This document shows, piece after piece, positions 1 through 43,871 of a stretch of DNA of 44,798 nucleotides (positions are counted from its first letter, which is position 1; each line of letters begins with the position of its first letter). The DNA is taken from the sequence record LT960609. One strand, 5' to 3'. Under the pieces are notes generated by a model that had not been told where the DNA came from, searched no databases, and saw nothing but the letters and a program-made list of their open reading frames with translations. The translations under genes and the position numbers were made by a program. The DNA comes from Escherichia phage SECphi18.

Positions 1-55
1 GGTGAATAATAGATTGGTTGCAGGATGGGTGTCAACAACTAATTTAAAAAAAAAA
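1..55. repeat. Terminal duplication, copy 1 (identical to 44744-44798)
   Basis: First 55 nt (ggtgaataatagattggttgcagg...aaaaaaaaaa) recur exactly at the window end. Confidence 0.8.
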
Positions 56-211: not shown

Positions 212-541
212 ATGAATGTAAACGACGCAATCGAAATGTTAACGAAGACTGTTAGCAGTGAGACAAGCCGGTCATGGTCTTATACCGATGCCGTTGGGGC
301 GGTGCTATTTGAGGTCGAGCGCCTGCGCAGTGTAGAAAAAGAATTACGCGCCAGGCTGGAATTGCTCAACGGTACGGCAGCCAGCAAGCTGCAAAAGCAC
401 AATGAAGAAATGGAAGAATACAAAAAGCAGGTTATCCGTTTGCGCGCCGAGGGCAAATCCTGGGCGATGATTGCCGAGTTGACCGGAATTAATCAGAGCA
501 CAGTGCGCTCCTGGGTACGCAATAATAAAACTTCTAAGTAA
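212..541 (+). CDS. Small helix-turn-helix DNA-binding protein (early regulator candidate)
   Basis: 109 aa; RBS gagggaagag before ATG; C-terminal HTH-like segment GKSWAMIAELTGINQSTVRSW. Confidence 0.55.
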   Translation: MNVNDAIEMLTKTVSSETSRSWSYTDAVGAVLFEVERLRSVEKELRARLELLNGTAASKLQKHNEEMEEYKKQVIRLRAEGKSWAMIAELTGINQSTVRSWVRNNKTSK

Positions 542-551: not shown

Positions 552-2816
552 ATGAGCTTAATTAAATTCGCTGTAACAAGACCCGCTAAAAAAGGCGAAA
601 AAGCCAGGGCGGAAAACTTCCAGATGACCACCGATGAATTTTTCGAATTTATCAAAGATGCGAAAGAAATCTCCTCGGTGCATATCAACAAGACGGAAGA
701 TAAAGCCGAGTATGCGCGCCGCAAGCGTAAGGCCGACGGCATCGTGGCTTATACCAGTGACGGATTGCGTCGTAAGACCAGTGCGGTGGACCGCTCGATC
801 CTGTTCTTTGATATCGACCGTACCGACACCCGCACCCTACGCCGCTGCCGTAAGGCGTTCATTGACGCGGGTCTGGAGCACGTCTTCCACACCACTACCG
901 GCGACCGCCACCCGCTGAAAGGCGGCACGCGTTGCGCCCGTTTCCTGGTGTTGACCGACAAGCCTGTACCGGCGGAAGACCTGGGCCGCGTCCAGTATGC
1001 ACTATTACACCAACTGGGTCTGTCAGATGTGGACTTCGACGATTGCACGAAAGACACAAACCGCCTTATGTACCTGCCACATCAGCAGTCTGTCGTTAAG
1101 TGTCACTACGGAAAACGTGCCCGCGTCCGTCGTCTGCTTCGCCTGGCTGATACGCTGGGAGTGGAGAAAGAGGAAGTGCGCCGCGAACTAACCCAGGGCG
1201 ATGACGGCGTGGCGGACGGAATTCTGGATTGGTGCTTCCAGGCAGGATTCGAACCGCTGTCGTCTGGTCGTGGTTATGAAGTGCCATGCCCGAACGAACA
1301 TCTGCATAGTGGCGAAGGGTCCACCGCAATCATGGTTAAGGATGGCGAGATCCGTTTCAAGTGTATGCACACCGGCAACGAGTGTTGCTCGGAACTGAAC
1401 AGACACCAGCATCTGGCGCTACGTCTTATCGGGATACCTGACCACCTGAACGTCGAACCACACAACATGTCACGTAAGCAAATCGCCGCCATCCTTCCAG
1501 GACTGGACGACGAGGAAGTGGAATCCTGCTATGAACATATCGTTGATGCAGTTGGCGACGGCGAAGAATACGGCGTGTGCACCGATGCCGACCTGGACAA
1601 CGAGCCGGTTGCGCTGTTCAGTAAGCACGACCCGATCATCGAGGGGTTGATTAACTTTAAATCGACCTGGTACATGGCGGGTGAGTCGAATATCGGTAAG
1701 TCTTTCTACGTGCTGGGGCAGATGGGTGCGGTTGCCGCGGGTATTCCGTTTGGCGGTGCGAAGGTCGTCCAGTCCCATTGCTTCTATTTCGATGCGGAAG
1801 GCGGCGAAGCCTCCAACCAGCGTAAGGAAGCATTGCAGATTAAATACGAGCACGACCTGGACAAGCTGCACATTATAGACCTGCAGTCACGCGGCTGGGA
1901 TATCACCAGCAAATCCGGCTTGCGCGAAGTTATCAGCTTTATCAACCGCACCGCTAACGGCGAACCGGTGGGCCTGGTGGCGTTCGACTCACTCAACCAG
2001 ACGGTTGCGTTGCGGTCCGCCGATGCTAAACCGTTCGACGAGAACAACGCCAGCGATATGGGTGAAGTGGTCAAAGCGCTGAAGGCCATCGCGGAAAATA
2101 CAGGTGGCAGTGCGGGCGTCATCCACCACCCGGCTAAAGGTGCAAACGGCAGCAGAACGCCACGCGGGTCCGGCGCGCTTCATGGTGCTGTCGATTCCGC
2201 GTTCTTCCTGGAACAACCGGACGACAACCAGCCCGGACAATTGAACCTGTATCACGAAAAGGCGCGTAACGGCATCAAGCAAGCGCCGCGCGGATTCGTC
2301 CTGCTCAAGTGCAAAGTTAAGGTGGATCTCCGCAAGTCCGAAGCGTTCGAAGCCCACCAGTCCACCAGCACCGGGCCAGACTTCGGCGATGTGGTTGCCG
2401 GTTGGGACGTCAAGCCGATCGCATCCACGCCTCGCGACGAGACTCTTTACCTCGTACCGGTCGCCCTGGCACCGTTCGCCATCGAACAGGCGAAGGCGGC
2501 GGGCAAGGCCGCAGTTAAGGAAGAGAACACCGCCGGACCGCGCAACGAAAAAGAGAAAGTGCTTTATGCGGCACTGGAAAAACTGATGGAAGATAACCCG
2601 GACCATACTGGATTCAGTAAATCGGCAATTGTCCGCCAGGCCGGACTCGCGAAAGGTGGCACATCGACGAAGGCAATCGACGATATGGTCGAGCGCGGCG
2701 TGCTTGGTTTTTATACAGATCCGCACACCGGGGCAATCTATGGGTCGTCGAATATCGTCATCAAAACGAATATACCCATCACGCTTTCGGCGACCGACGA
2801 CGACTTAAAAGATTAA
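552..2816 (+). CDS. DNA primase-helicase (RecA/DnaB-like ATPase with N-terminal primase-like domain)
   Basis: 754 aa; Walker A-like GESNIGKS in a RecA-like core; acidic N-terminal domain with FFDIDRTD. Confidence 0.6.
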   Translation: MSLIKFAVTRPAKKGEKARAENFQMTTDEFFEFIKDAKEISSVHINKTEDKAEYARRKRKADGIVAYTSDGLRRKTSAVDRSILFFDIDRTDTRTLRRCRKAFIDAGLEHVFHTTTGDRHPLKGGTRCARFLVLTDKPVPAEDLGRVQYALLHQLGLSDVDFDDCTKDTNRLMYLPHQQSVVKCHYGKRARVRRLLRLADTLGVEKEEVRRELTQGDDGVADGILDWCFQAGFEPLSSGRGYEVPCPNEHLHSGEGSTAIMVKDGEIRFKCMHTGNECCSELNRHQHLALRLIGIPDHLNVEPHNMSRKQIAAILPGLDDEEVESCYEHIVDAVGDGEEYGVCTDADLDNEPVALFSKHDPIIEGLINFKSTWYMAGESNIGKSFYVLGQMGAVAAGIPFGGAKVVQSHCFYFDAEGGEASNQRKEALQIKYEHDLDKLHIIDLQSRGWDITSKSGLREVISFINRTANGEPVGLVAFDSLNQTVALRSADAKPFDENNASDMGEVVKALKAIAENTGGSAGVIHHPAKGANGSRTPRGSGALHGAVDSAFFLEQPDDNQPGQLNLYHEKARNGIKQAPRGFVLLKCKVKVDLRKSEAFEAHQSTSTGPDFGDVVAGWDVKPIASTPRDETLYLVPVALAPFAIEQAKAAGKAAVKEENTAGPRNEKEKVLYAALEKLMEDNPDHTGFSKSAIVRQAGLAKGGTSTKAIDDMVERGVLGFYTDPHTGAIYGSSNIVIKTNIPITLSATDDDLKD

Positions 2817-2891
2817 ATTCTGCGCGCATTGGTTGCCGATATGGGAATTCCCATATCGCTAAAAGATTAAATTTTGCGTGCATTGGTTGCC
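2805..2891. repeat. Two copies of a ~33-nt unit (ttaaaagattaaattNtgcgNgcattggttgcc) spaced 54 nt apart
   Basis: Copy 1 overlaps the primase-helicase stop codon; copy 2 starts 54 nt downstream; each ends in an ATTGGTTGCC motif. Confidence 0.6.
2837..2858. promoter_or_regulatory. 22-bp perfect palindrome (candidate protein-binding site)
   Basis: cgatatgggaattcccatatcg is its own reverse complement; sits between the two repeat copies. Confidence 0.5.
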
Positions 2892-2976
2892 ATTTTGGGT
2901 GTTTTTATCCGGTCGTATTGGTTGCCGTGTCGTGTAAATATAGTGAATAGTTATGCAATAAAACTGCATAAACTAA

Positions 2977-3078
2977 GCGGGACAAAAAGCGGGACAAACA
3001 TGAGGCGGGACAAAGCGGGACAGCACCCCTGTCCCGCCCCGGATGACGCGGCCTGGCGAGGAGCGGGACAGCGGGACA
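2977..3078. repeat. Iteron cluster A: six direct GCGGGACA copies plus one inverted copy
   Basis: GCGGGACA at about 2977, 2989, 3005, 3015, 3063, 3071; inverted TGTCCCGC at about 3030; non-coding. Confidence 0.7.
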
Positions 3079-3138
3079 GCACCCCAGTCTTTCAGACTAG
3101 ACGGGGTCAGTGGCCCCCCCCCGTCTGAGACTGAATAA
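3064..3138 (+). other. Conserved ~75-nt structured element, copy A (paralog at 19504-19578)
   Basis: cgggacagcgggacagcaccccagtctttcagactagacgggg...ccccgtctgagactgaataa; hairpins agtct/agact and agacgggg/ccccgtct. Confidence 0.55.
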
Positions 3139-3294
3139 AATCCGGGAGATTGCAAAATACACGGCAGCATGATGCGGATTGCGGTCGTTGATGAACTAGG
3201 CAACCAATGCGGGGTGTATTATGCTGAGTGAAAAATGCGGTTTGCAGTTACAGCAGATAGCGATCGACTTTTTCATGCGCGTGATTAATATTGG

Positions 3295-3323
3295 TTGCAC
3301 CCACCCTGGCACCCTGCTATATT
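3295..3323 (+). promoter_or_regulatory. Sigma70-like promoter overlapping two ATTGGTTGCA motif copies
   Basis: -35 TTGCAC (inside motif copy), 17-nt spacer, -10 TATATT (start of second copy); about 30 nt upstream of the 3352 ATG. Confidence 0.5.
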
Positions 3324-3351
3324 GGTTGCACACCAACATGAGGACTGAACA

Positions 3352-19257: not shown

Positions 19258-19261
19258 TGAA

Positions 19262-19518
19262 GCGGGACAAAAGCGGGACGTCCCGTTTTGTCCCGCCCTG
19301 TAAAACCGCATATCTAATCTCTTTCATTGCATAAACTCAAAGCGGGACAGGCGGGACGTCCCGTTTTGTCCCACCCCGAAATGTGCATACCTATTCGAAT
19401 TTCGTGCATAAAACAAACGGGACAAAAAGCGGGACAGCATAGGGGCGGGACAAAGCGGGACAGCACCCCGTCCCCACCAGTGCTGCCGCGGGTTTTAGCC
19501 GATCGGGACAGCGGGACA
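19262..19518. repeat. Iteron cluster B: about nine GCGGGACA-type copies with GGGACGTCCC palindromes
   Basis: Units of about 80 nt: tgcataaa, then GCGGGACA, then GCGGGACgtcccg; non-coding block inside the tail module. Confidence 0.7.
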
Positions 19519-19578
19519 GCACCCCAGTCTTTCAGACTAGACGGGGGTCAACGGCCCCCCTCGTCTGAGACTGAATAA
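19504..19578 (+). other. Conserved ~75-nt structured element, copy B (paralog at 3064-3138)
   Basis: Matches copy A except for a few changes in the second hairpin that keep pairing through a G-U wobble. Confidence 0.55.
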
Positions 19579-19640: not shown

Positions 19641-22283
19641 ATGGCAGATCAAGCGGCAGGCATCACGCTGAAGGCTGATGTTGCACAAATCAGAACGGCA
19701 AATACTGTGCTGGACTCCTTCGCACAGAAATCCGAGAACACAGAAAACAAGGTTAAGAAATTAAACGACACCCTCGGCAAATCCAAAAAGGTGACGAGTG
19801 ACGCCGCGGGCGGAATGGAAAAGCTGGCAAACGAATCGCAGCGCGCCGCCGATGGCATGACGAAACAGGAGCGACTCGCCAACAGGTTAGGGATGTCGAC
19901 TAAAAACCTGGGCTTTGCCTCGCGTAACGCCGCATTCCAGCTACAGGATATTGCGGTAACGCTTGAGATGGGGATGCCGGTTCACCGCGTCATGCTTCAG
20001 CAGTTACCGCAGCTAACTGGGGCGTTCGGTGGACTGGGTAACACGCTGCGTTATGTTGCGGGCTTCCTCGGCCCAGTAGGGATCGGCCTTGCCGCCGTAA
20101 CGGCAACGTTAGGCGTGGGCGTGGCAATTACGTCCCGCGCAGAGAACCAGGTCGCCGCGCTTAACAAGACGCTGGCACTTTCCGGTAACATTTCCGGCCT
20201 GACGGCAAACCAGATCCTGGTGCTATCCGAGAACGCCGAGCGCATGGGCGGGTCGTTCCGCAAGACGCGTGACACAATCCAGGCGCTGGCGGCGGCGGGG
20301 GTGAAAGCGGGTGGTGACTTCGGTGCACTGGCGAAGGTAGTGAATGACTTCTCGAAGGTGTCCAGCCAGCCGATCGAGGATGTGGTCGCGGCGGTGGCGA
20401 AGCTGTCTACCGACCCGGTAGGCGGCTTGCGAGCATTGGCTGATAAGTATCACGTCGTAAACGAAGCGCAGATCCAGCAGGTGCAGTCACTAGTGACGGC
20501 TGGTCGCGAAACCGAAGCGGTGGCGCTGGCTAACAAAACAGCCGCGGCGTCGTTTACCACTATGACCAATGAGATCAAGTCCAACATGGGTACGCTTGAG
20601 CGGTCGATGAACGTCGTTACATCGGCAGCTAAATCTATGTGGGATGCTATCCTGGATGTTGGACGCGCGCAGTCCTCGAATGAGTCTGAGATGAAGGCGC
20701 GTGAGTCATTGCAGCGGCTGACAACGGCTTACTATGCCGAGATGAAAGCGGTAAACGCTGCCGGCGGGGTGATGACCGACGCGCAGAAAGCGCGTATTAA
20801 CATGCTTTACAGCGAACTGGTCGCCCAGGAAAAGGTGGTGGCGTCGCTTACCCTGCGTAACCGAGCCGAGCGAGACAACGCAAGTGCCGCGGACGAAGCA
20901 GCAAAGGCGAACGAAGAGGCCAACCGCACCGCCCGCGACCGCGCCGCGTTCGAGAAGGAGTACGCAACCAACGCGAAGAGGCGCGCCGACGAGATCGCCC
21001 GCCTCAATTTGCTTAATAAGCGCGGCGTGATTGACGAGAAAGAGCTTGCCGAGGCGGTGAAGCAGGTAAACGAGCGTTACAAAGACCCCGCCCCGAAGAA
21101 GGCCGCCGCTGTTCGAGTCGATGCCGGGCTGAAAATGCTGGAAGTCGCGCGAAGCGAATTAGCCCAGCTTCGTGAGTCTGGAAAGCAGATCGAAGCCAAC
21201 GCATCGACGCAGACCCGCACGCAACGCGCGCAGGCGGCCCTAAACAAGCTGATTGCCGACAACGAGCAGTTAATCGCTGCGAGCAAAGAAAGGGCGCTGA
21301 CGGCAGCAGAGAAGCAGCAATTAGTCGAGTTCGGGCGCGTGAAGGAAGTCCGCGAGCAGATCGTCGAAGAAGCCAAATTGCTGGACGCGAAAGAGAAGCA
21401 GGTCAAGGCGCACGCGCAGATCGACGCCTTCGTTAAGAACCAGAACGCCGAGCTAAAAGCCACCGCGGCGGGCTATGCGCTTTCCACTCGCGAAGCGGCT
21501 AACCTGCGCGAAGAATTGCAGCTAATTGACCGCCTTAAGCGGGTGGGCGCTAGTGATACCGATATTGATCTGGCAGTGTCTAAACTGCGCGAAGTGCAGG
21601 AAGCACAGACCGGTGCTAACGCCTCACTATGGGATGGATTCAGCCGTGGGCTTAAGGATAGCGTGGATGAAATGGGTAACGGCTATACGCAGATGGCGTC
21701 ACTCACAAAATTCACGTTCGGCGCTATGCAGGACACGATGAACGAGTTTTTCGAGACTGGCAAGCTGAACGCAAAGGATATGGTTAAGTCCATCCTGAGC
21801 GAATTAATAAAGCTGGCTACATCGCAGGCATTCAAGTCCATCGTTAGCGCTTTCGGTGGCGACGGTGGAAAAAACGGGTTGTTCGGCGCTATCTTCTCCG
21901 GCCTCACTAAGAATGCGGACGGCGGAGCGTACGCAGGAGGCAATCTCGCATCCTATTCGGGGAAAGTGGTAAGCCAGCCTACCTTTTTCAGTTATGGCGT
22001 CCAGGCGTTCGCTAAGGGCGCGGGATTGATGGGTGAGGCTGGACCCGAGGCCATCATGCCACTGAAGCGCGGGCCGGACGGGAAACTGGGCGTTGCCGCG
22101 TCTGGCGCAGGCGGTGGTATGGTCGTGACGACTAACGTTTACACGGGGACCGGTAAAACGGATACCAGTGTCAACGGGCCGGACCCACGTACCGCGCAGG
22201 CGTTCGGCAAGCAAATCACCGAGGCGGTGAAGGCCGAGATCGTGAAGGCGACGAAACCGGGTGGTGTACTTTACAAACGATGA
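19641..22283 (+). CDS. Tail tape measure protein
   Basis: 880 aa; long Ala/Lys/Glu-rich helical protein after G/GT; Gly-rich C-terminal region. Confidence 0.85.
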   Translation: MADQAAGITLKADVAQIRTANTVLDSFAQKSENTENKVKKLNDTLGKSKKVTSDAAGGMEKLANESQRAADGMTKQERLANRLGMSTKNLGFASRNAAFQLQDIAVTLEMGMPVHRVMLQQLPQLTGAFGGLGNTLRYVAGFLGPVGIGLAAVTATLGVGVAITSRAENQVAALNKTLALSGNISGLTANQILVLSENAERMGGSFRKTRDTIQALAAAGVKAGGDFGALAKVVNDFSKVSSQPIEDVVAAVAKLSTDPVGGLRALADKYHVVNEAQIQQVQSLVTAGRETEAVALANKTAAASFTTMTNEIKSNMGTLERSMNVVTSAAKSMWDAILDVGRAQSSNESEMKARESLQRLTTAYYAEMKAVNAAGGVMTDAQKARINMLYSELVAQEKVVASLTLRNRAERDNASAADEAAKANEEANRTARDRAAFEKEYATNAKRRADEIARLNLLNKRGVIDEKELAEAVKQVNERYKDPAPKKAAAVRVDAGLKMLEVARSELAQLRESGKQIEANASTQTRTQRAQAALNKLIADNEQLIAASKERALTAAEKQQLVEFGRVKEVREQIVEEAKLLDAKEKQVKAHAQIDAFVKNQNAELKATAAGYALSTREAANLREELQLIDRLKRVGASDTDIDLAVSKLREVQEAQTGANASLWDGFSRGLKDSVDEMGNGYTQMASLTKFTFGAMQDTMNEFFETGKLNAKDMVKSILSELIKLATSQAFKSIVSAFGGDGGKNGLFGAIFSGLTKNADGGAYAGGNLASYSGKVVSQPTFFSYGVQAFAKGAGLMGEAGPEAIMPLKRGPDGKLGVAASGAGGGMVVTTNVYTGTGKTDTSVNGPDPRTAQAFGKQITEAVKAEIVKATKPGGVLYKR

Positions 22284-31588: not shown

Positions 31589-31611
31589 GGGGCCATGCGG
31601 CCCCTTTTTTT
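31589..31611. terminator. Bidirectional intrinsic terminator
   Basis: ggggcc-atgc-ggcccc followed by T7; lies between convergent genes. Confidence 0.6.
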
Positions 31612-32185
31612 AGTTTGAGTTTTCCCAGTCCATTTTTCGCCGCACCAGGGGGCTTTCGTAGTATTCCTTTCCGTCCACTTCCACTAAGGGCCAGTCATTA
31701 ACAATGACGTATGGTTCCGCGATATCCTCGATCACGCCATGCGCGCTTTGCGGCCCTAACGACACACCAACCAGGATAACACCGGCAACGCGACGGGCAA
31801 GATACTCGCGAGCGCAACGCGCCTCTACCAGTCCGCGACGGATGCCGCTGGTGGCCTTAACCTCGTAGGTCCATACGGCATCAATCACATGCTCGCGGAA
31901 GTCTGGACCGGACTTAACCTTGCGTTTACCGACCATGATGATATCGCCGCGGTCAATGGTATTGGCGCTAAACAGGCCGGTACGCATCAGTAAGCCTTGC
32001 GGGATACAACTACGCCCGCCCGCCTGGCCCTCAAGGTACATGCCAGCAAACATCTCGCCCAGCACACCGACAAGACGGCTTTGCTTGCACGCGTCAGACT
32101 TTAAGCGCCACTGGTCAAACTCGATGCTTGCTATCATAGCCGCCAGGTGGAATTGTTTACCGGATATTTCATATTCGCCGTACAT
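31610..32185 (-). CDS. Hypothetical protein, possible PD-(D/E)xK nuclease fold
   Basis: 191 aa; GPDF...VWTYEVK resembles a PD...ExK motif; weak. Confidence 0.35.
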   Translation of the reverse strand: MYGEYEISGKQFHLAAMIASIEFDQWRLKSDACKQSRLVGVLGEMFAGMYLEGQAGGRSCIPQGLLMRTGLFSANTIDRGDIIMVGKRKVKSGPDFREHVIDAVWTYEVKATSGIRRGLVEARCAREYLARRVAGVILVGVSLGPQSAHGVIEDIAEPYVIVNDWPLVEVDGKEYYESPLVRRKMDWENSN

Positions 32186-32227
32186 CGTGTGGCCCTCATT
32201 GATGCGGGCCGAAGCCCGCGATTAGAA

Positions 32228-32749
32228 TTATTTCAGTGCGCCAGTCACCAGTGTTTTTTCCATGTTGCGGAAGTCTTCCGGCGTCATGAGGATTTTGGAC
32301 CCGTCTTCGCCAGTTAGAACGACCATAGGCTGGACGTCCTGGTCTACGACGCCGAAATCGGCGGCTTTGACAGTCTTGCCCGCCGATGCCGAAGGATGCC
32401 ACGCCCCTGCGGTGGCGATGGGCCAACCTTTAAGGCTATCGTATTGCGCTGCCGTTGTATCGATCTGGATCTCGTCATGTACGGTCATGTACGACTCGCC
32501 CAGCAGTGCGGCATATGCTACCAGGTCAACGATGTTATCGTCCTGGTGCTTACGGTGCTGGCGTACCAGCTTCAGGCAGATCAGGAAGGTCCAGGCTTCT
32601 TGCTCGGTAAGGTCGCGACCGGTAAGCGCGTTAAACACGGCAGCGATCTGCTTAGCGCTGCGCTCCTCTTTCGCGTTGTCATAGCCGTTTTCTTTCCCGC
32701 GCTGATCCATAGTGGTGGCGGCGTTTTTGCAGTATTCGTATGCTTTCAC
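32228..32749 (-). CDS. Hypothetical protein
   Basis: 173 aa; GTG start with RBS aaaggg. Confidence 0.45.
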   Translation of the reverse strand: MKAYEYCKNAATTMDQRGKENGYDNAKEERSAKQIAAVFNALTGRDLTEQEAWTFLICLKLVRQHRKHQDDNIVDLVAYAALLGESYMTVHDEIQIDTTAAQYDSLKGWPIATAGAWHPSASAGKTVKAADFGVVDQDVQPMVVLTGEDGSKILMTPEDFRNMEKTLVTGALK

Positions 32750-32793
32750 AGTATTACCCTTTTAGTGAGGGGCAGTATTGCCCCGACACGTTT

Positions 32794-32823
32794 ACTATAG
32801 TGCAACCAACCTATTGGTTGCAA
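32794..32823 (-). promoter_or_regulatory. Sigma70-like promoter containing a palindromic operator
   Basis: TGCAACCAA-cctA-TTGGTTGCA inverted repeat (9-bp arms); minus strand -35 TTGCAA, 18 nt, -10 TATAGT. Confidence 0.5.
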
Positions 32824-33281
32824 GTAAATTTTGCAACGTTTATTGCGTAAATTTTCGGGACCAGATCGCTGCACGCCCGACGAATTGCCGCGATGTTCTT
32901 CTCGCAATCTTCAATGATGACCAGTTCGGACACGTCCGCATAGCAGACCATTTTGAACACGGCGCACGCTTTAAACTCTGGCGGCGGGGTGTCGTCCAGC
33001 ATGTGGCGCATGAACAACCGGCCGTTCGGGAATACTTCCAGTTGCTCGGCGGTCGTGTCCCAACATTCGCGCTGCCGGTTTGTCAGATACGCGATCTCGA
33101 AGCCTTGCTCTTTGTACATGCGCAACAGCGGCAGCATATCCATGTTAAGGTCTTCGCGTACGTGCGCTTTGTGCCACTTCGCCCAAAATGTTGATTTGGT
33201 TTTTATACCCGGAACCAGGTCGGCGCGTGCATCACTCGAACCATTAATAACGCCATCAAGATCACAAATCAGTAGTTTCAT
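32811..33281 (-). CDS. HAD-superfamily hydrolase/phosphatase-like protein
   Basis: 156 aa; N-terminal LLICDLDGVI matches HAD motif I (DxDG). Confidence 0.5.
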   Translation of the reverse strand: MKLLICDLDGVINGSSDARADLVPGIKTKSTFWAKWHKAHVREDLNMDMLPLLRMYKEQGFEIAYLTNRQRECWDTTAEQLEVFPNGRLFMRHMLDDTPPPEFKACAVFKMVCYADVSELVIIEDCEKNIAAIRRACSDLVPKIYAINVAKFTCNQ

Positions 33282-33502
33282 TTTAAGCTCTCAATAAGGG
33301 TGTGTCGGGCGCTGCGCGCGGTGAAGGAGTTACACACGAAATGGCAACGCTTGGTTATGACAAGCCAGCCGGTAAGATCCAGGCCCAGGATATATTCAGG
33401 CCGTGACACGCGCTTCACGTGATCGCGGCGTGGGTCGATGTTATAGTCTCTTTGCATTTGGTATACTACCGCGGGGTCGCGGTCAACGATTAAGATATTC
33501 AT
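33278..33502 (-). CDS. Hypothetical protein
   Basis: 74 aa from internal ATG with RBS gagag; overlaps neighbours by 4 nt. Confidence 0.4.
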   Translation of the reverse strand: MNILIVDRDPAVVYQMQRDYNIDPRRDHVKRVSRPEYILGLDLTGWLVITKRCHFVCNSFTARSARHTLIESLK

Positions 33503-33968
33503 GTAACTCACTCTCGCTCATTATTTCAATTTGTGCGCTGCCGATGGGCGGCGCTTCGTCAAAGATTATCAATTGCTGGCACTTGTTATTGCTAGGCCCG
33601 ACTTCGCCGGTGACGGCGTGTATAAATCTAATCCGCCAGTCCAGAAGAATTATCAGGTTTGCAGTCTTCCTGGCCAGCTTCGCCCCCTTCGTCGACGTGT
33701 CCTGATTCAGTAGCATGACCGTCCGGCGTCCGTGCGCTGCGCACTCTACCCACGGCAGCGGATCGGAATACGGCGGATTGCACCACTTCCACCCTTTCAA
33801 CTCGGACCAGTCCACATCAAGCGCGCTGTGTTCCGCCGTGAAGTAACGCGGTAGCAGATGATTGGCGTCGCTTGCCGCCATATCGTAACGGAATCGGTAT
33901 TTCCGACGAAGCGGTTTAAATAAAGCTGGCGGCGTGCGCCAGCTATCTTTTTGCTCATTCTCCGTCAT
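33483..33968 (-). CDS. DNA N6-adenine methyltransferase (phage Dam-like)
   Basis: 161 aa; catalytic NPPY motif (WCNPPYSD). Confidence 0.6.
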   Translation of the reverse strand: MTENEQKDSWRTPPALFKPLRRKYRFRYDMAASDANHLLPRYFTAEHSALDVDWSELKGWKWCNPPYSDPLPWVECAAHGRRTVMLLNQDTSTKGAKLARKTANLIILLDWRIRFIHAVTGEVGPSNNKCQQLIIFDEAPPIGSAQIEIMSESELHEYLNR

Positions 33969-34413
33969 AGTCTGGATCTATCGCATACAGGGCGGTTTTC
34001 TTGCCACTGGATAGCACGCGTTGGACTCGGGATAGCTCCGCCCTACTGAGCGGTCGGCTATCGGAATAGTAGCTGCCGTTTGCACGCCACGCTATACGCA
34101 CCAGTCCTTTCCGCGGGATCGAAGACTGGCTGCCCTTCGGACGGACGTACTCCTCGGCCAGTTTGCAATGCTCGCGCAGACCTTCGGCAGTGATGCGGTT
34201 TAGCGCGACGGTGGTTGTGTACCCGGTGCGCTGCATAATACCCATCAACTCATACAGCAGTTCGAAGCGCTCCTCTAACTCCTTGCGCATCTTTTCCTCG
34301 CCTTCATAGCTCGCCAGGTAGGTATCCGCCAGCGCGTTCGCCCGTTCGACCTGTTCGCGGGCTTCGAGGCATTGCGCGGCCCAGTAATTTTTCTCTTCTT
34401 GTAAAATTTTCAT
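33955..34413 (-). CDS. Hypothetical protein
   Basis: 152 aa; charged helical N-terminus. Confidence 0.45.
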   Translation of the reverse strand: MKILQEEKNYWAAQCLEAREQVERANALADTYLASYEGEEKMRKELEERFELLYELMGIMQRTGYTTTVALNRITAEGLREHCKLAEEYVRPKGSQSSIPRKGLVRIAWRANGSYYSDSRPLSRAELSRVQRVLSSGKKTALYAIDPDYDGE

Positions 34414-34433
34414 CGTGTTGTCTCCAGGTATTA

Positions 34434-34460
34434 AAAAAGGCGTCCAAACCGGACACCCTT
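34434..34460 (-). terminator. Terminator-like hairpin on minus strand
   Basis: Minus strand: ggtgtcc-ggttt-ggacgcc followed by T6. Confidence 0.4.
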
Positions 34461-34467
34461 AAGATAA

Positions 34468-34494
34468 TGCAACCAATATAATTATGCAACCAAT
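34468..34494. promoter_or_regulatory. Tandem operator-motif pair
   Basis: Two TGCAACCAAT copies 17 nt apart in the intergenic region. Confidence 0.5.
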
Positions 34495-34818
34495 TTACGA
34501 ATAAAAATTTGGGTCGCGCGCTACGTCTACCAGATACAGATTGCTGATTCGGTTGCCGTAGTGGCCTGGTGTGCGCTTGCGGCACACAACGGCGTAGCCT
34601 GGAGGAATTGTATTGCCAGTCTCAATAATCCACGCCACGCGCGCGCCAGATAGCGTCTTGCCGTTGCACTCGATGCGCGTGCCACCATCGGCAGTGTTAA
34701 GGTTGCCGATCTTGCAGCCTGTGGACTTCAGGCGAATGACGCCGGTCTTGCTGTCGTAGGAAAAAAGCTGATTGGTCATTGCCACTGAAAAGTCGATGGC
34801 TTCGAATGTAGTATTCAT
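34495..34818 (-). CDS. Hypothetical protein, HNH-like
   Basis: 107 aa; weak resemblance to homing-endonuclease DNA-binding modules. Confidence 0.3.
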   Translation of the reverse strand: MNTTFEAIDFSVAMTNQLFSYDSKTGVIRLKSTGCKIGNLNTADGGTRIECNGKTLSGARVAWIIETGNTIPPGYAVVCRKRTPGHYGNRISNLYLVDVARDPNFYS

Positions 34819-35510
34819 TTTAAATTTTCCTCATTGACCGCTATCGCGAAGCCGCGCGGGGTGAGCGACCTGATTAATTTGGTGCGGGCAGATTTGCCTC
34901 CGAGGCGACTATACTGCTTCGAGTACCCTTTTTCAACGAAAACAGGTTTCTTCTCTGGCATACGGAAGCCGTTGCCGGTCCATAAGCAGGTCAGCTTCGG
35001 ATATGAATCGCGGGCGTTGATGTACTCTGGGAAGAGCGGGTGTACGTCATCCACCGGTAGATAGCCGCCATACTCCCACGGGTCGAACGAGTGGTCCGGC
35101 TTGCGCCATTGGGTCGATAGCACGCTGCGCGGATTCTCAATCATATATGGCACTTCGAAGAAGTCCCCCAGGTAAGCGGCGATCTTCGCGGTGCGCACCG
35201 CCTTAAGCTGGAAGGCAGGGTCGCGGGCGCGTTTGCGCGGGAAAGCTGGCGCACCGCTAACCGCCAGATCCGTACACGGCGGGAATGCGTAAATGATATC
35301 CGGCGTGCCGAAATCACCATTCATCGCGCGGTCCACGAAGTCCAGATCGATAAACTCATTACGATATCGGATACCGCGCCCATAGATCCGGTAATCAAGG
35401 TAAGACCCGTGATCGGCTTCGGAGTAGTTGAAGCAATAACACTTATGCCCCATCTCGGCAGCACGCTCAATCATCAAGCCGCTGCCGTCAAACAATGACC
35501 AGATTATCAT
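34815..35510 (-). CDS. DNA C5-cytosine methyltransferase-like protein
   Basis: 231 aa; motif I-like LFDGSG, motif IV-like FPPC, motif VI-like ENP; short for a full methyltransferase. Confidence 0.45.
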   Translation of the reverse strand: MIIWSLFDGSGLMIERAAEMGHKCYCFNYSEADHGSYLDYRIYGRGIRYRNEFIDLDFVDRAMNGDFGTPDIIYAFPPCTDLAVSGAPAFPRKRARDPAFQLKAVRTAKIAAYLGDFFEVPYMIENPRSVLSTQWRKPDHSFDPWEYGGYLPVDDVHPLFPEYINARDSYPKLTCLWTGNGFRMPEKKPVFVEKGYSKQYSRLGGKSARTKLIRSLTPRGFAIAVNEENLK

Positions 35511-36931
35511 TTGCGAGCCTTTTTAGCTTTCATGTATTCCATCAAGTCGTCCTGTATATCTCGCTTACTGTCGCGACGCTCGGCGACCAGTTCGTCCAGT
35601 GTTCCGCGCGCCTGGATAATGTAGACGAATACCGGTCGAGGGTGTCCGGCCTGCATCTGGCGAACCGGCCCGATACGTTCAACGATCTGCGAAAAGTGCT
35701 CAAAGTTCCAGGTATCGGAGAAGATTGCCAGGTGATGACCGCCGTCCTGCAAGTTAAGGCCGTGGCCCGCCGATGCCGGGTGTGCAAACATGATGGGGAT
35801 CTCGCCTCTGTTCCACGCTTCCATATCCTTATTGCCCTGCTTACCCTTACCCAACGCGACGCCGTGCGGAAATTTCTTCTTAAGACGTGCCAGGTCATGC
35901 TTATACTGATACGCAACGAGCAACGGCGCGCCGTTCAACTCCTCCACGATACTTTCCAGCGCGTCCAGTTTGGCGTCGTGAATCTTCACCCATTCGTCGG
36001 TGCGCTCGCCGTCTTCGTCGACTTTATACACGGCCCCCGAAGCAAGCTGAAGGCACTTAATAGTCTTCGACGCAGCGTTCGCCGCCTCCACCGTTCCGCT
36101 TTCCAGTTCGGCAAATAGCTCGCTTTCAAACTGGTCGTAAATCTTGCGGGCTTTCTTCGGCAGGTCCACAACAACCGGCGTATAGATTGGCTTGTCGCAC
36201 CCGAAGTATTCTGCCGCGTCAACGGTGAGGGATACATCTGACAGACGTTGTTGTATCTCTTTCTCGGAGTTCTTTAGCGGAGCGTGCTGCATAGTGAAGC
36301 TGCCAGGCTTAACAGGCTTGCTAATAAACCAGCGGTCGGTAAATGCCTTATAGCTACTGCCGAGGCGTTCGCCACCGTCGACAAACCACGTCTGACCCCA
36401 TAAGTCTTTTAGCCCGTTTGGCGCTGGTGTGCCGGTAAGGTTAATCCAGCGCTTGACGTGTTTATGTGCAATCGCTGCCAGTGCGCGGGCGCGCTTGCTC
36501 CCCTGCTTGCTACGATAGCCTTTCAGCTTAGTCGATTCATCGGCAACAACGACCGTAAAGGGCCACGCATCGCCGTAATAGTCTACCAGCCACTCAACCA
36601 CATCGTAGTTAACACAAACCACGTTAGCGTCGCTCTCAAGCGCGGCAATACGGTCCTTCTCCGGTCCGGTGCCGTCTACGACCAGTAGGGATGAGAACCG
36701 CCATTTCTCCTGTTCCGGGGGCCATGTACCCGACGCAACACGCAGCGGGGCCAGCACCAGTACGCGGTCCTCATGATGTGACAGGACGCCAGTCTGGAAC
36801 ATTTTATTCAGCGCCCACATTGTCGCGCCGGTTTTCCCGGATCCCATTGTCGCCCAGATATTACATCGCTTATGCTTGAGGATGAACGCGGTAATCAACT
36901 TCTGATATTCGCGGCGTCGGAATCGTGCCAT
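35507..36931 (-). CDS. SNF2/DEAD-like superfamily 2 helicase
   Basis: 474 aa from internal ATG; Walker A MGSGKTG, DEST box, helicase C-terminal motifs. Confidence 0.65.
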   Translation of the reverse strand: MARFRRREYQKLITAFILKHKRCNIWATMGSGKTGATMWALNKMFQTGVLSHHEDRVLVLAPLRVASGTWPPEQEKWRFSSLLVVDGTGPEKDRIAALESDANVVCVNYDVVEWLVDYYGDAWPFTVVVADESTKLKGYRSKQGSKRARALAAIAHKHVKRWINLTGTPAPNGLKDLWGQTWFVDGGERLGSSYKAFTDRWFISKPVKPGSFTMQHAPLKNSEKEIQQRLSDVSLTVDAAEYFGCDKPIYTPVVVDLPKKARKIYDQFESELFAELESGTVEAANAASKTIKCLQLASGAVYKVDEDGERTDEWVKIHDAKLDALESIVEELNGAPLLVAYQYKHDLARLKKKFPHGVALGKGKQGNKDMEAWNRGEIPIMFAHPASAGHGLNLQDGGHHLAIFSDTWNFEHFSQIVERIGPVRQMQAGHPRPVFVYIIQARGTLDELVAERRDSKRDIQDDLMEYMKAKKARK

Positions 36932-36935
36932 CTCT

Positions 36936-37154
36936 TTATTCCGCCTTTTTCCAGACTTCAGTTTCACTATCCCAGTTCCTCTTTGTGGCGTCGTAGTTGG
37001 TGGCGTGTCCGACGTGGACACCGGTAGCCCGGAAGCTCTTAAATTTTTGCCAGCACACCGTCAACGGCAGCGGATCATTCATGCCTGCGATAAACCACAC
37101 GCGATCGCCCGGTTTACATTCGCCCAGCTTGGTGAGTCGGTAATGTTCTTTCAT
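36936..37154 (-). CDS. Hypothetical protein
   Basis: 72 aa from internal ATG with RBS gggaga. Confidence 0.4.
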   Translation of the reverse strand: MKEHYRLTKLGECKPGDRVWFIAGMNDPLPLTVCWQKFKSFRATGVHVGHATNYDATKRNWDSETEVWKKAE

Positions 37155-37170
37155 CGGCATGTCTCCCAAA

Positions 37171-37195
37171 AATGGCGGGACAAGCCCGCCGTATT
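37171..37195 (-). terminator. Intrinsic terminator on minus strand
   Basis: Minus strand: ggcgggc-ttgt-cccgcc followed by attttt. Confidence 0.45.
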
Positions 37196-37197
37196 AA

Positions 37198-37371
37198 TTA
37201 TTTTTGCTCTGCGCGGTAGCGGCGCTGCCGTTCGCGCTCTTTTTTATTGCGGCACGATTTGCACTCTGCCCGATACCCGTCCGGGCTTCGCGCAGTCTTA
37301 CCGGTGTATTTATGGAACTGGGATAGCGGTTTAACGCAGCCGCAATTACTGCAACGTTTTTCTTCAATCAT
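37198..37371 (-). CDS. Free-standing zinc-ribbon protein
   Basis: 57 aa from internal ATG; CSNCG...CKSC pattern, same as the N-terminal repeats of the HNH endonuclease. Confidence 0.4.
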   Translation of the reverse strand: MIEEKRCSNCGCVKPLSQFHKYTGKTARSPDGYRAECKSCRNKKERERQRRYRAEQK

Positions 37372-37402
37372 CTCTAAAATCCTCGATATGGCTAACCGGC
37401 AC

Positions 37403-37431
37403 ACTATACCGCTATGCGACCAATTCAGCAA
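37403..37431 (-). promoter_or_regulatory. Sigma70-like promoter using an operator-motif copy as -35
   Basis: Minus strand: TTGCTG (inside ATTGGTTGCT), 17 nt, TATAGT; upstream of the zinc-ribbon gene. Confidence 0.4.
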
Positions 37432-37690
37432 CCAATAAATCACAGTCGGCGATGTTGTCTGTAACGCGAACGTCCGCGCCGCGGCGGGCCATCCTCTCAT
37501 GTTCACGTACCTGGTGCGGCTTCGGTTTTCCTCCGGGGCGCTTCACTTCGACGAACACTATTTTGCCGTTGATGATAATAATCAGGTCGGGCGCACCTGC
37601 GCGCCCCTCCCATGCCAGTTTTCGGCAGAATCCGCCAACATCTTTCACCCGTCTCATCAGGTGACTTTGAATCTTGCCTTCTGGTGTCAT
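37412..37690 (-). CDS. VRR-NUC domain nuclease
   Basis: 92 aa; GAPDLIIIINGKIVFVEVK matches the VRR-NUC PD...EVK core. Confidence 0.6.
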   Translation of the reverse strand: MTPEGKIQSHLMRRVKDVGGFCRKLAWEGRAGAPDLIIIINGKIVFVEVKRPGGKPKPHQVREHERMARRGADVRVTDNIADCDLLVAELVA

Positions 37691-38289: not shown

Positions 38290-38356
38290 ATACACCCCCG
38301 AAAAAGAAAACGTCAGACAATATTGCCTGACGTTTCCGCTAAAAGCAACATTTCCG

Positions 38357-40648: not shown

Positions 40649-40815
40649 TGCTTAATCCTCACTACGGCGTCAGCGCTGCCGATCATGGAGAAGATGCCGT
40701 CTGACAGGGCGATCTCTTCGCCGTTGTTGCGAATCTCGGCAACCGTGAAATATTCCCCCAGTAGCTTGGACCATACTTGCATTCCGACTTTTACTTCGCT
40801 GGCTTTAATACGCAT
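40645..40815 (-). CDS. Small hypothetical protein
   Basis: 56 aa from internal ATG; 4-nt overlap with the polymerase start. Confidence 0.35.
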   Translation of the reverse strand: MRIKASEVKVGMQVWSKLLGEYFTVAEIRNNGEEIALSDGIFSMIGSADAVVRIKQ

Positions 40816-40825
40816 TTTTCGTTGT

Positions 40826-40850: not shown

Positions 40851-40873
40851 GGCTTGAATAGTGGGCTTTGCCC

Positions 40874-43855: not shown

Positions 43856-43871
43856 TGTCTCGTCCTCTAAA

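What the first reader, a model, noticed from the sequence alone, without database searches (positions are those of the whole stretch)
3064..3138. Duplicated ~75-nt element whose differences preserve hairpin pairing
Copies at 3064-3138 and 19504-19578 differ at only a few positions, all in the second hairpin. In copy A it is agacgggg/ccccgtct; in copy B the stem still pairs if one G-U wobble is allowed. Pairing that tolerates G-U suggests function as RNA (processing site, antitermination or stability element), though two copies is thin evidence.
Basis: partly seen in the sequence, partly recalled or inferred. Interest (0 to 1): 0.7.

Follow-up and report, generated by a model that had tools for sequence, protein, structure and literature searches.

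The report
Phage replication-origin module, present twice
The duplicated 75-base hairpin is real, but it is the end of a larger repeat of protein-binding sites plus a palindrome that looks like this E. coli phage's replication origin, present twice, and not like a free-standing RNA element.

Summary
3064-3138 and 19504-19578 share a 43-nt exact run, and they differ only in the loop and in one stem position (G-C against G·T).

The copies are the 3' end of a 174-nt repeat. It has an AT-rich block, six direct and one inverted GCGGGACA octamers, and a 48-nt imperfect palindrome. The window is a complete Dhillonvirus genome.

Copy A lies directly after the primase-helicase gene. Copy B lies between the tail-chaperone and tape-measure genes.

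The same layout follows the orthologous gene in nine other lineages: AT-rich block, lineage-specific repeats, then a long GC-rich hairpin. GCGGGACA arrays also follow AAA_25 helicase genes in at least seven unrelated metagenomic lineages.

The helicase-primase ends in a predicted winged-helix domain, and its third helix tracks the repeat type.

Among 41 distinct Dhillonvirus copies the stems never show a compensatory change. Between genera they do. The minus strand folds as well as the plus strand, so the G-U argument for RNA fails.

Best reading: an iteron-type origin with a hairpin-forming palindrome, duplicated only in Dhillonvirus. It works like the SaPI, IncQ, P4 and SPP1 origins. No experiment supports this yet.

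The parts
212..541 (+). 109-aa helix-turn-helix protein gene. It is the first gene of the operon that also encodes the helicase-primase, and a rival candidate for binding one of the two repeat motifs.
   Evidence: Pfam HTH_23, HTH_28 and Sigma70_r4_2 at residues 65-105. A small HTH gene sits in the same position in the relatives.
552..2816 (+). 754-aa primase-helicase. It has N-terminal DxD and SGDRH motifs with a Cys/His cluster, an AAA_25 (RepA-like) helicase domain, a C-terminal winged helix (about residues 665-735) and an acidic tail.
   Evidence: Pfam AAA_25, E=2e-19. Weak profile hit to RSF1010 RepA 1G8Y, E=0.097. AF2 model of the last 114 aa: pLDDT 73 overall, 84-90 in the core. Top Foldseek PDB hits are all winged-helix domains. 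The primase assignment is inferred from motifs only.
2918..2925 (+). TTGGTTGC motif at the left edge of module A. It pairs with an inverted copy at 3200-3207. Further copies are at 2829-2836 and 2883-2890.
   Evidence: 20 sites in the window against 2.03 expected. Related motifs (GTTGGCTGC, TTTGTTGCCG / CGGCAACAAA) flank the modules of Shemara, AH01 and phiEap-2.
2934..2976 (.). AT-rich block of module A. It contains GAATAGTTATGCA (2945-2957) and TGCATAAA, and is the candidate unwinding element.
   Evidence: Read directly. GAATAGTTATGCA occurs once or twice at the same place in Shemara, AH01, phiEap-2 and L266.
2977..3078 (.). Iteron array of module A. GCGGGACA is at 2977, 2989, 3005 and 3015 (+), 3030 (-), then 3063 and 3071 (+). 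A 25-nt spacer lies between the inverted site and the last two.
   Evidence: 16 GCGGGACA in the window against 2.35 expected, and 14 of them lie in the two modules.
3085..3133 (.). Imperfect palindrome of module A, the core of the finding. Small hairpin: AGTCT 3086-3090 with AGACT 3094-3098. G/C hairpin: AGACGGGG 3099-3106 with CCCCGTCT 3119-3126. Tail: GAGACTG 3127-3133, which can pair with CAGTC 3085-3089 instead.
19259..19404 (.). Two extra mini-modules upstream of copy B. Each is GCGGGACA-N-GCGGGACGTCCCGTTTTGTCCCGCC, and each is followed by an AT-rich stretch ending in TGCATAAA.
   Evidence: (D18).
19405..19518 (.). AT-rich end and iteron array of module B. CGGGACA sites are at 19417, 19429, 19445, 19455, 19503 and 19511 (+), with a degenerate inverted site near 19470.
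   Evidence: (D2).
19525..19573 (.). Imperfect palindrome of module B. AGTCT-TTC-AGACT, then AGACGGGGG-TCAACGG-CCCCCC-T-CGTCT, then GAGACTG. The T at 19561 is a G·T wobble or a one-base bulge on the 3' arm.
19641..22283 (+). Tape-measure gene immediately downstream of module B. It gives context only and is not part of the element.
   Evidence: Synteny with the annotated phage Oekolampad and ORF list.

Best explanation
The two copies are two instances of a composite replication-origin module that works at the DNA level. Each module has three parts: an AT-rich block, an array of GCGGGACA iterons (direct copies plus one inverted), and a 48-nt imperfect palindrome.

Proposed mechanism (all steps inferred; nothing in it has been tested):
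1. The phage primase-helicase, encoded just upstream of copy A, binds the iterons through its C-terminal winged-helix domain.
2. Oligomerisation on the array melts the neighbouring DNA.
3. The palindrome then folds into a hairpin on the exposed single strand(s). There it serves as the loading or priming signal for the same protein.

Copy A is the ancestral origin. Copy B is a second origin, or an origin-enhancing site, created by a duplication confined to Dhillonvirus. Both copies are kept alike by exchange between them.

Shown here: the composite architecture, its fixed place after the helicase-primase gene in many lineages, lineage-specific repeats, the conserved hairpin potential, and a winged-helix fold prediction.
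For: 1. GCGGGACA is strongly clustered: 16 sites against 2.35 expected, 14 of them in the two modules, in direct and inverted orientation.
2. Arrays of the same octamer start at or within about 100 nt of the stop codon of an AAA_25 helicase or Prim-Pol-helicase gene. This holds in at least seven unrelated viral and metagenomic lineages at 25% identity or less.
3. Nine other lineages with a helicase-primase 43-69% identical (Shemara, AH01, phiEap-2, L261-L266) have the same order after the stop codon: AT-rich block, iterons, inverted iteron, long GC-rich hairpin. Seven of the nine have different iterons: GGGGGAGA, CGGACAA, TTGCGAGT, GGGGATC, TTGCGA, GGGAT, GGGATAA.
4. The C-terminal 114 aa fold as a winged helix. 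The start of helix 3 tracks the iteron class.
5. Hairpin arms change in a compensatory way between genera. A pyrimidine bulge on the 3' arm recurs in five lineages.
6. Both strands fold equally well.
7. Cornellvirus has one copy per genome, next to the helicase-primase gene. The Dhillonvirus duplication carried iterons and hairpin together, and all 157 GenBank relatives keep them.
8. In the Dhillonvirus HK578, escape from the OLD defence maps to the helicase-primase and to its operon promoter. The authors link OLD and Lamassu triggering to origin hairpins (bioRxiv 10.64898/2026.07.10.737580).
9. The GenBank record of Sodalis phage SO-1 already marks both regions as repeat regions.
Against: - There is no experimental origin mapping for any Dhillonvirus or Guernseyvirinae phage in the literature I could search.
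- GC skew follows transcription direction and says nothing about an origin.
- The binder of the iterons is inferred. The small HTH protein encoded upstream is an alternative. The helix-3/iteron correlation could simply reflect shared ancestry.
- The winged-helix matches are weak (Foldseek E 0.015-0.3).
- BLAST does not detect the C-terminal domain in the distant lineages that carry arrays.
- Both copies are in the sense orientation inside a long plus-strand gene block, so they are probably transcribed.
- A second origin in the middle of the tail genes has no obvious rationale.
- Within Dhillonvirus the palindrome is invariant in sequence. That fits sequence-specific recognition as well as folding.
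Confidence: 0.6

Rival explanations
1. An RNA element. The plus-strand transcript folds into the hairpin(s) and acts in cis. It could act as a processing or stability site, as a put-like antiterminator that lets RNA polymerase read through the many terminator-like sites of the two long downstream gene blocks, or as a structured primer or R-loop RNA for the origin.
For: Both copies are co-oriented with the flanking genes, and no intrinsic terminator is predicted between the upstream gene and the element. The fold is conserved across genera with compensatory changes and G·U-compatible positions, including two wobbles in AH01 in one possible pairing. Each copy precedes a long plus-strand gene block, and WF5505 annotators list many putative terminators inside these blocks.
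Against: There is no strand bias in folding. The minus strand is as stable or more stable in 8 of 11 lineage sequences (RNA parameters) and in 10 of 11 (DNA parameters). The element is never found without the adjacent iterons, including inverted ones that make no sense in RNA. Relatives with one copy still have the same long late gene blocks. Promoter-like sites lie downstream of the element, so the transcripts they start would not carry it (by eye). There is no Rfam match. Fold z-scores are only -1.1 to -2.5.
Confidence: 0.15
2. A transcriptional control region. The octamer arrays are operators for a phage regulator, such as the 109-aa HTH protein. The palindrome is a factor-binding site or an atypical terminator that insulates the early helicase-primase operon from the next operon. 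Copy B does the same in front of the tape-measure gene.
For: An HTH gene is conserved upstream of the helicase-primase in all relatives. Promoter-like sequences follow both copies: an extended -10 TGATACAAT after copy B, and TTGACA-17-TATTGT in AH01 (by eye). A second motif, TTGGTTGC, marks intergenic regions genome-wide and brackets module A. Annotators of CS16 and WF5505 placed 'terminator' features in these regions.
Against: The hairpin has no T-run, and the scan calls no terminator there. The arrays track AAA_25 helicase genes in unrelated lineages with different downstream genes. The iteron type tracks the helicase-primase winged helix. The genome-wide promoter-associated motif is TTGGTTGC, not GCGGGACA, which is confined to the two modules.
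Confidence: 0.15
3. A packaging recognition (pac) region. The repeat arrays would be small-terminase binding sites, and the first headful cut would be made nearby.
For: The WF5505 record, whose ends were set from abrupt read ends, starts about 115 nt downstream of the palindrome of copy A. The BMA1 and Pandora71 records start at the same point. Dhillonviruses are reported to package by headful.
Against: The terminase genes are 4.7 kb away. A second pac site 16 kb away inside the tail genes would be harmful. The arrays are linked to helicase genes in many unrelated lineages. Record starts may simply have been copied from one reference. Another study reported a cos end elsewhere.
Confidence: 0.05

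Closest known systems
SaPI/PICI replication module (pri-rep genes with ori immediately 3' of rep)
   Same: An initiator-helicase gene is followed directly by its own origin. That origin is made of short iterons around or next to an AT-rich stretch. Specificity resides in the C-terminal part of the initiator, and iterons differ between lineages. (From my own knowledge of Ubeda et al. 2007; PICI overview PMC6092414 was listed but not read.)
   Different: Here primase, helicase and DNA-binding domain are one polypeptide, and the helicase is of the AAA_25/RepA type. A long GC-rich hairpin is a constant part of the module, and the module occurs twice. Nothing here has been tested biochemically.
IncQ plasmid oriV (RSF1010/R1162): iterons, GC- and AT-rich segments, and the palindrome carrying ssiA/ssiB, with RepC, RepA helicase and RepB' primase
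   Same: The helicase family is the same. Pfam AAA_25 is the RepA family, and there is a weak profile hit to RepA 1G8Y. Iterons lie next to an AT-rich segment and a large palindrome. In IncQ the single-stranded hairpins of that palindrome are the priming signals for a dedicated primase. This is the model for the mechanism proposed here. (IncQ details are from my own knowledge.)
   Different: In IncQ the three activities are three separate proteins. Here they appear fused. The iterons are 8 nt, not 20 nt. Priming at the hairpin is not shown here. The N-terminal domain did not match RepB' or any solved primase by sequence.
Satellite phage P4 alpha protein with ori and crr
   Same: One polypeptide carries primase, helicase and a C-terminal winged-helix origin-binding domain. 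Octamer repeats in direct and inverted orientation occur in two separate regions of the genome (ori, and crr 4.5 kb away), and both are needed in cis. (From my own knowledge.)
   Different: P4 alpha has a different (superfamily 3) helicase and a different primase fold. There is no sequence similarity to it. P4 has no conserved hairpin next to its repeats. Whether copy B is needed here is unknown.
Bacillus phage SPP1 oriL and oriR
   Same: It is a virulent siphophage with two copies of the initiator-binding repeat region. One lies at the replication genes, and the other lies far away among late genes. (From my own knowledge.)
   Different: The SPP1 initiator G38P is a separate origin-binding protein, with a separate loader and helicase. 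The repeats and the architecture are unrelated.
HK022 put RNAs (putL, putR)
   Same: Both involve two copies per genome of a roughly 70-nt element with two stem-loops, in the sense orientation ahead of long operons.
   Different: put sites lie just downstream of promoters and have no adjacent protein-binding repeat arrays. Here there is no strand bias in folding, and the relatives have a single copy. This resemblance is recalled from memory and has no test in its favour.

Membership tests
Iteron-type replication origin adjacent to its initiator gene | Clustered short repeats (iterons) in direct orientation, far above chance | tested here: met
   GCGGGACA occurs 16 times against 2.35 expected. 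14 of the sites lie in the two modules, at spacings of 8-16 nt.
Iteron-type replication origin adjacent to its initiator gene | AT-rich stretch next to the iterons | tested here: met
   2934-2976 is AT-rich in a genome of about 55% GC. The 13-mer GAATAGTTATGCA is conserved at the same place in four other lineages.
Iteron-type replication origin adjacent to its initiator gene | Constant linkage to a replication-initiator or helicase gene across lineages, with lineage-specific iterons | tested here: met
   (same iteron, unrelated AAA_25 helicases). (orthologous helicase-primases, different iterons).
Iteron-type replication origin adjacent to its initiator gene | The initiator binds the iterons | not testable with these tools
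   Only indirect evidence: a predicted C-terminal winged helix, and helix-3 residues that track the iteron class.
Iteron-type replication origin adjacent to its initiator gene | Replication starts there, or the region supports autonomous replication | not testable with these tools
   No experimental data were found. GC skew is uninformative.
Single-strand initiation (ssi) hairpin of IncQ type | Stable hairpin formed by a single DNA strand next to the iterons | tested here: met
   DNA-parameter folds of -7.6 to -21 kcal/mol in 11 lineage sequences, on both strands.
Single-strand initiation (ssi) hairpin of IncQ type | Recognition and priming by the cognate primase | not testable with these tools
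   The primase domain itself is inferred only from DxD, SGDRH and Cys/His motifs. It has no Pfam or PDB sequence match.
Structured cis-acting RNA (processing, antitermination or stability element) | Compensatory base changes that keep the pairing | tested here: inconclusive
   There are none among 41 distinct Dhillonvirus copies. They are present between genera, but a DNA palindrome gives the same signal.
Structured cis-acting RNA (processing, antitermination or stability element) | Strand-specific folding: G·U on the transcribed strand, with a poorer fold of the complement | tested here: not met
   The minus strand is as stable or more stable in 8 of 11 (RNA parameters) and 10 of 11 (DNA parameters) lineage sequences.
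Structured cis-acting RNA (processing, antitermination or stability element) | Match to a described RNA family | tested here: not met
   Rfam at gathering thresholds gave nothing. The E-value search gave nothing for copy A, and only far sub-threshold miRNA-like hairpin hits near copy B.
Intrinsic transcription terminator | GC-rich stem-loop followed by a T-run | tested here: not met
   The hairpin is followed by GAGACTGAATAA, and the scan did not call it.

The most novel reading that the evidence does not exclude
The palindrome would be a strand-specific single-strand signal whose conserved 3'-arm pyrimidine bulge is read by the fused primase-helicase. That would make this a one-protein version of the IncQ RepA/RepB'/RepC + ssi system, widespread in phages, with recognition helices matched to their iterons. 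The same origin hairpins would be the molecular pattern that triggers OLD- or Lamassu-type defences. That would explain why HK578 escapers map to this helicase-primase. Dhillonviruses would run two such origins kept identical by gene conversion.
Probability: 0.2. Interest if true: 0.65.

Novelty: new variant of a known kind. Interest (0 to 1): 0.45.

Why it matters
Dhillonviruses and Guernseyvirinae are common E. coli and Salmonella phages, and they are used in therapy and biocontrol collections. I found no mapped origin for any of them.

The analysis gives a precise, testable origin candidate and a candidate initiator domain. It also gives a table of matched iteron and helix-3 pairs across about ten lineages, which would suit specificity-swap experiments.

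It offers a concrete DNA structure to test as the trigger of OLD and Lamassu defence in HK578-like phages. It also raises the question of why one genus keeps a second copy inside its tail genes.

For the scan itself, it shows that a two-copy 'compensatory' signal can be an accident of one variant base. The informative comparison was between genera.

Tried and rejected
- **Rfam.** The gathering-threshold search of the whole window and the E-value search of both regions found no real match.
- **Literature.** Searches for the repeat regions, the octamer or an origin in Dhillonvirus, SO-1, HK578 and phiEap-2 found nothing on the element. The SO-1 GenBank note is cut off after 'possible ...' in the tool output.
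- **Gapped iteron pattern.** The scan of viral contigs timed out.
- **AT-rich 14-mer AAGTGAATAGTTAT.** The scan of viral contigs gave 120 or more hits. Only one (FSL SP-031) has the helicase-primase gene (tblastn, E < 1e-5), so I treat the others as chance hits.
- **The 18-mer iteron pair in metagenomes.** About 35 of the 90 hits belong to one conserved gut-bacterial locus with only two motifs. I set these aside.
- **BLAST into distant array-bearing loci.** Neither the 109-aa HTH protein nor the C-terminal domain was detected.
- **Word-index protein search with the C-terminal 154 aa.** It returned one fragment only.
- **Single-sequence AF2 of the C-terminus.** It was unusable at pLDDT 43. I repeated it with an alignment.
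- **Profile search of PDB sequences.** It gave only a weak RepA hit, and BurrH hits that I take to be spurious.
- **GC skew as an origin indicator.** It only follows gene orientation.
- **Kagunavirus and Jerseyvirus relatives (G AB-2017, PVP-SE2).** The helicase-primase gene is followed at once by a divergent DicA-like repressor gene. No module was seen there, and I did not pursue it.
- **Terminator reading of the hairpin.** Rejected, because there is no T-run.
Full report
**What the window is.** The first 55 bases are repeated exactly at the end, so the window is a circularly assembled complete genome of 44,743 bp. It is 84-91% identical over the region around the finding to 157 GenBank phages. 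Almost all of these are Escherichia or Shigella phages of the genus Dhillonvirus, the HK578 / SSL-2009a / SO-1 group.

The gene map was taken from ORFs and from synteny with the annotated phage Oekolampad. Plus-strand genes:
- HTH protein, 212-541
- primase-helicase, 552-2816
- small genes, lysis genes and terminase
- head and tail genes up to the chaperones (ending 19257)
- tape measure, 19641-22283
- tail tip and fibre genes

The DNA polymerase, SSB, nuclease and methylase genes are on the minus strand (31610-44732).

**The observation.** 3064-3106 and 19504-19546 are identical over 43 nt, and the last 16 nt are identical too. All differences lie between GACGGGG and GTCT.
- Copy A reads G4-TCAGTGG-C9.
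- Copy B reads G5-TCAACGG-C6-T-C.

So the two copies differ in the loop, in homopolymer length, and at one stem position: C in A and T in B, opposite a G. The description is correct but incomplete in three ways.
- The repeat is 174 nt long (2965-3138 and 19405-19578, 80% identity).
- The G·T state is the norm in the family, and copy A is the odd one.
- The minimum-energy fold is a single long imperfect hairpin, in which CAGTC pairs with the distal GACTG. It is not two hairpins. It is only 1.1-2.5 standard deviations better than shuffled sequence.

**What surrounds the hairpin.** The octamer GCGGGACA occurs 16 times in the window against 2.35 expected. Fourteen of the sites lie in the two repeat regions. 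Module A reads, in order:
- an AT-rich block (2934-2976, with GAATAGTTATGCA and TGCATAAA)
- four direct octamers
- one inverted octamer
- a 25-nt spacer
- two more direct octamers
- the 48-nt palindrome (3085-3133)

Module B has the same order, plus two extra mini-modules upstream. The GenBank record of Sodalis phage SO-1 already marks both regions as 'repeat_region ... direct, inverted and palindromic repeat sequences ... possible ...'. I found no paper that discusses the regions.

**Variation within Dhillonvirus.** I collected 78 distinct flanked copies from IMG/VR, metagenomes and GenBank. That gave 44 distinct 84-nt cores, of which 41 were aligned.

One departs only through a single non-paired cell. 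No pair shows a compensatory change. The long-hairpin structure does no better than shuffles.

Part of this invariance comes from how the data were gathered, because the first scan used the exact 20-mer. However, about two dozen copies retrieved in other ways carry the same 20-mer, apart from a C-to-A change at its first base in two of them. These came from the iteron pattern, from whole-genome fetches, and from the least similar GenBank hits. A lineage whose helicase-primase is only 69% identical also carries it (L261). Variation is concentrated in the 7-nt loop.

So the two-copy comparison carried no real covariation signal. The stems are conserved as sequence.

The same variants of the linker and the loop occur at both loci. 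Chimeric modules exist (L047, L050, SM_W22). Copies in one genome are slightly more alike than copies from different genomes (0.917 against 0.906, permutation p = 0.016). The two loci therefore exchange sequence.

**Link to a helicase gene.** Scanning with an 18-mer made of two octamers found arrays in unrelated viral and metagenomic contigs. Where there are five or more motifs, the array starts at or just after the stop codon of a gene with an AAA_25 (RepA-type) helicase domain. Some of these genes also have an N-terminal Prim-Pol domain. Examples are L033, L034/35, L036, L038/L091, L039, L100 and L122. The evidence is tblastn at 24-26% identity over the helicase core, Pfam and ORF positions. 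In these lineages the direct repeats are followed by a palindromic pair (GGGACATGTCCC) and then by a long GC-rich palindrome.

**Orthologous modules in other genera.** The window's helicase-primase has full-length relatives at 43-49% identity in the Guernseyvirinae and in metagenomes. I read the DNA after the stop codon in nine such lineages. In every case there is a 400-650-nt non-coding stretch with the same order of parts. The repeats differ in seven of the nine.

| Lineage | Repeat |
|---|---|
| Shemara (Cornellvirus) | GGGGGAGA |
| Pantoea phage AH01 | CGGACAA |
| Enterobacter phage phiEap-2 | CGGACAA |
| L261 | GCGGGACA |
| L262 | TTGCGAGT |
| L263 | GGGGATC |
| L264 | TTGCGA |
| L265 | GGGAT |
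| L266 | GGGATAA |

The 13-mer GAATAGTTATGCA of the AT-rich block is shared by Dhillonvirus, Shemara, AH01, phiEap-2 and L266.

Each lineage has a long imperfect hairpin after the last repeat. The small hairpin AGTCT-TTC-AGACT is:
- AGTCT-TATC-AGACT in AH01
- AGTCT-TAGC-AGACT in phiEap-2
- CTCCT-TAG-AGGAG in Shemara
- TCCTC-TAAC-GAGGA in L266

The G-run/C-run hairpin keeps its shape, with outer stems AGACG/CGTCT, GGATGG/CCGTCC, TGG/CCA, GATG/CATC and CTCGG/CCGAG. A pyrimidine bulge (T, T, T, AT, C) sits on the 3' arm between the outer and the inner stem.

This is real cross-genus covariation. It does not say whether the folded molecule is RNA or DNA, because a DNA palindrome gives the same signal.

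**RNA or DNA.** The G-U argument predicts that the transcribed (plus) strand folds better than its complement. It does not. The minus strand is as stable or more stable in 8 of 11 lineage sequences with RNA parameters, and in 10 of 11 with DNA parameters.

The hairpin is never found apart from the repeat arrays. Those arrays include inverted copies and palindromic pairs, the usual signature of protein binding to duplex DNA. Cornellviruses have a single copy per genome, at the helicase-primase locus. Copy B is therefore a later duplication, and the duplication carried AT block, repeats and palindrome together. All 157 relatives keep them (321 places in 157 records).

There is no T-run after the hairpin, and the scan does not call it a terminator. 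No Rfam family matches.

On the other side, both copies are in the sense orientation and are probably transcribed. The conserved one-sided bulge also suggests that a folded single strand is read, not a symmetric duplex. That strand could be DNA or RNA.

**The likely binder.** The last 114 residues of the helicase-primase were modelled with a 25-sequence alignment. They fold as helix-strand-helix-helix-hairpin, with pLDDT 84-90 in the core. All top Foldseek matches in the PDB are winged-helix DNA-binding domains: MarR-family proteins including a MepR-DNA complex, histone H1, and the ORC2 C-terminal domain. The E-values are weak, 0.015-0.3.

The first residues of helix 3 sort with the repeat type.

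| Repeat type | Start of helix 3 |
|---|---|
| GCGGGACA | GGT-(S/N)T(K/T)AI |
| the three GGGAT-type repeats | RRPA |
| the two TTGCGA-type repeats | Y-x-K-x-L |
| GGGGGAGA | RYKIL |
| CGGACAA | RRR |

By eye, the distant GCGGGACA lineages also carry (R/K)KAF at the matching place. This fits recognition of the repeats by this domain, but it may partly reflect shared ancestry.

The rest of the protein:
- The N-terminal third has invariant DxD and SGDRH motifs and a Cys/His cluster. I read these as an archaeo-eukaryotic-type primase with a zinc motif. There is no Pfam or PDB sequence match.
- The helicase domain is AAA_25, with a weak profile hit to RSF1010 RepA.
- The protein ends in a conserved acidic tail.

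The 109-aa protein encoded just upstream has an HTH domain and is a rival binder. I think it more likely binds the second motif, TTGGTTGC. That motif occurs 20 times against 2 expected, at intergenic sites across the genome, and it brackets module A.

**Mechanism proposed.** The module looks like an iteron-type origin:
1. The initiator binds through its winged helix and oligomerises on the array.
2. The AT-rich block or the neighbouring DNA melts.
3. The palindrome folds on the exposed strand(s).
4. The folded palindrome acts as the loading or priming signal for the fused primase-helicase.

This is the logic of IncQ plasmids (iterons, RepC, RepA helicase, RepB' primase and the ssi hairpins), here carried by one polypeptide. 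It is also the layout of SaPI/PICI replicons, where the ori lies immediately 3' of rep.

Two copies of the initiator-binding region recall P4 ori/crr and SPP1 oriL/oriR. These comparisons rest on my knowledge of those systems and on the AAA_25 assignment. There is no sequence-level membership beyond the helicase domain.

A recent preprint reports that HK578 mutants escaping the OLD defence carry changes in this helicase-primase (gp46) or in the promoter of its operon. It argues that single-stranded hairpins at phage origins trigger OLD and Lamassu (10.64898/2026.07.10.737580). That is independent, indirect support that replication initiation by this protein creates special DNA structures. It does not map the origin.

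**Rivals.**
- An RNA role (processing site, put-like antitermination, or primer RNA) remains possible at about 0.15.
- A purely transcriptional role for the arrays and the palindrome is also about 0.15.
- A packaging site is about 0.05. Its only support is that the WF5505 record, whose ends were set from read pile-ups, and two other records start about 115 nt downstream of the palindrome of copy A.

**Verdict.** The interpretation as an RNA element is only partly supported: the fold is conserved, but there is no RNA-specific evidence, and the strand test was not met.

The best explanation is a composite origin-like module, duplicated in Dhillonvirus (confidence 0.6). It is a new variant of a known kind of element. 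It is of moderate interest, mainly because it gives a precise origin candidate, a matched set of repeats and recognition helices, and a concrete candidate for the hairpin sensed by anti-phage defences.

Noticed in passing
window 1-55 and 44744-44798: An exact 55-nt repeat at the two ends of the window. This is a circular-assembly overlap, so the window is one complete 44,743-bp Dhillonvirus genome.
   Followed up: yes
window 14, 2829, 2883, 2918, 3200(-), 3291, 3322, 3840(-), 13664/13677(-), 32802(-)/32814, 34469/34486(-), 41716/41732 and others: A second repeated motif, TTGGTTGC, has 20 sites against 2.03 expected. The sites are in intergenic, promoter-like positions, often in pairs, and they bracket origin-like module A. 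Relatives carry GTTGGCTGC, TTGGCAGC or TTTGTTGCCG at the same places. It may be the operator of the conserved small HTH protein, or part of a promoter.
   Followed up: partly
window 2806-2845 and 2860-2899: A 40-nt direct repeat (88% identity) just after the helicase-primase stop codon. Each copy carries TTGGTTGCC.
   Followed up: no
window 3295-3323 and 3330-3351: A by-eye sigma-70 candidate, TTGCAC-17 nt-TATATT. It is followed by a leader, ACACCAACAGAGG, that is conserved in Shemara. The consensus scan did not call it. It suggests that the genes after module A have their own promoter.
   Followed up: no
window 19262-19298 and 19342-19376: Two extra mini-modules (GCGGGACA, then the palindrome GCGGGACGTCCCG, TTTT, and an inverted GTCCCGCC) upstream of copy B. 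WF5505 annotators called the first one a terminator.
   Followed up: partly
window about 3251 (equivalent to position 1 of NC_073060.1, PQ178821.1 and PV841870.1): Three GenBank records start about 115 nt downstream of the palindrome of copy A. The ends of one of them were set from abrupt read ends, and it carries about 2 kb of terminal redundancy. This could be a packaging start, or just a copied convention.
   Followed up: partly
L047, L050, L135 (SM_W22) locus A; L043 (EE09) locus A: Chimeric modules carry the B-type spacer at locus A. EE09 has a deletion between the two GCGGGACAGCACCCC repeats. Copies within a genome are slightly more alike than copies between genomes (p = 0.016). This indicates ongoing exchange between the two copies.
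   Followed up: partly
window 40890-41111 and 44137-44430 (minus-strand ORFs): GTC/GTCATC-rich repeats that encode acidic D/E-rich stretches, including a 90-nt tandem duplication at 44240-44419.
   Followed up: no
window 2796-2813 (C-terminus of the helicase-primase): A conserved acidic tail (DDDLKD here; EDDLEN, DDLEN or DDDLAD in relatives). It recalls the acidic C-terminal tails through which other replicative helicases and SSBs contact their polymerase.
   Followed up: no
L044-L046, L049, L051 and about 30 further metagenome loci: The 18-mer GGCGGGACAAAGCGGGAC also occurs as a lone pair of motifs in a conserved locus between a 272-aa and a 157-aa ORF. Several of these contigs come from human-gut metagenomes. 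There is no array and no helicase there, and I did not examine it further.
   Followed up: no
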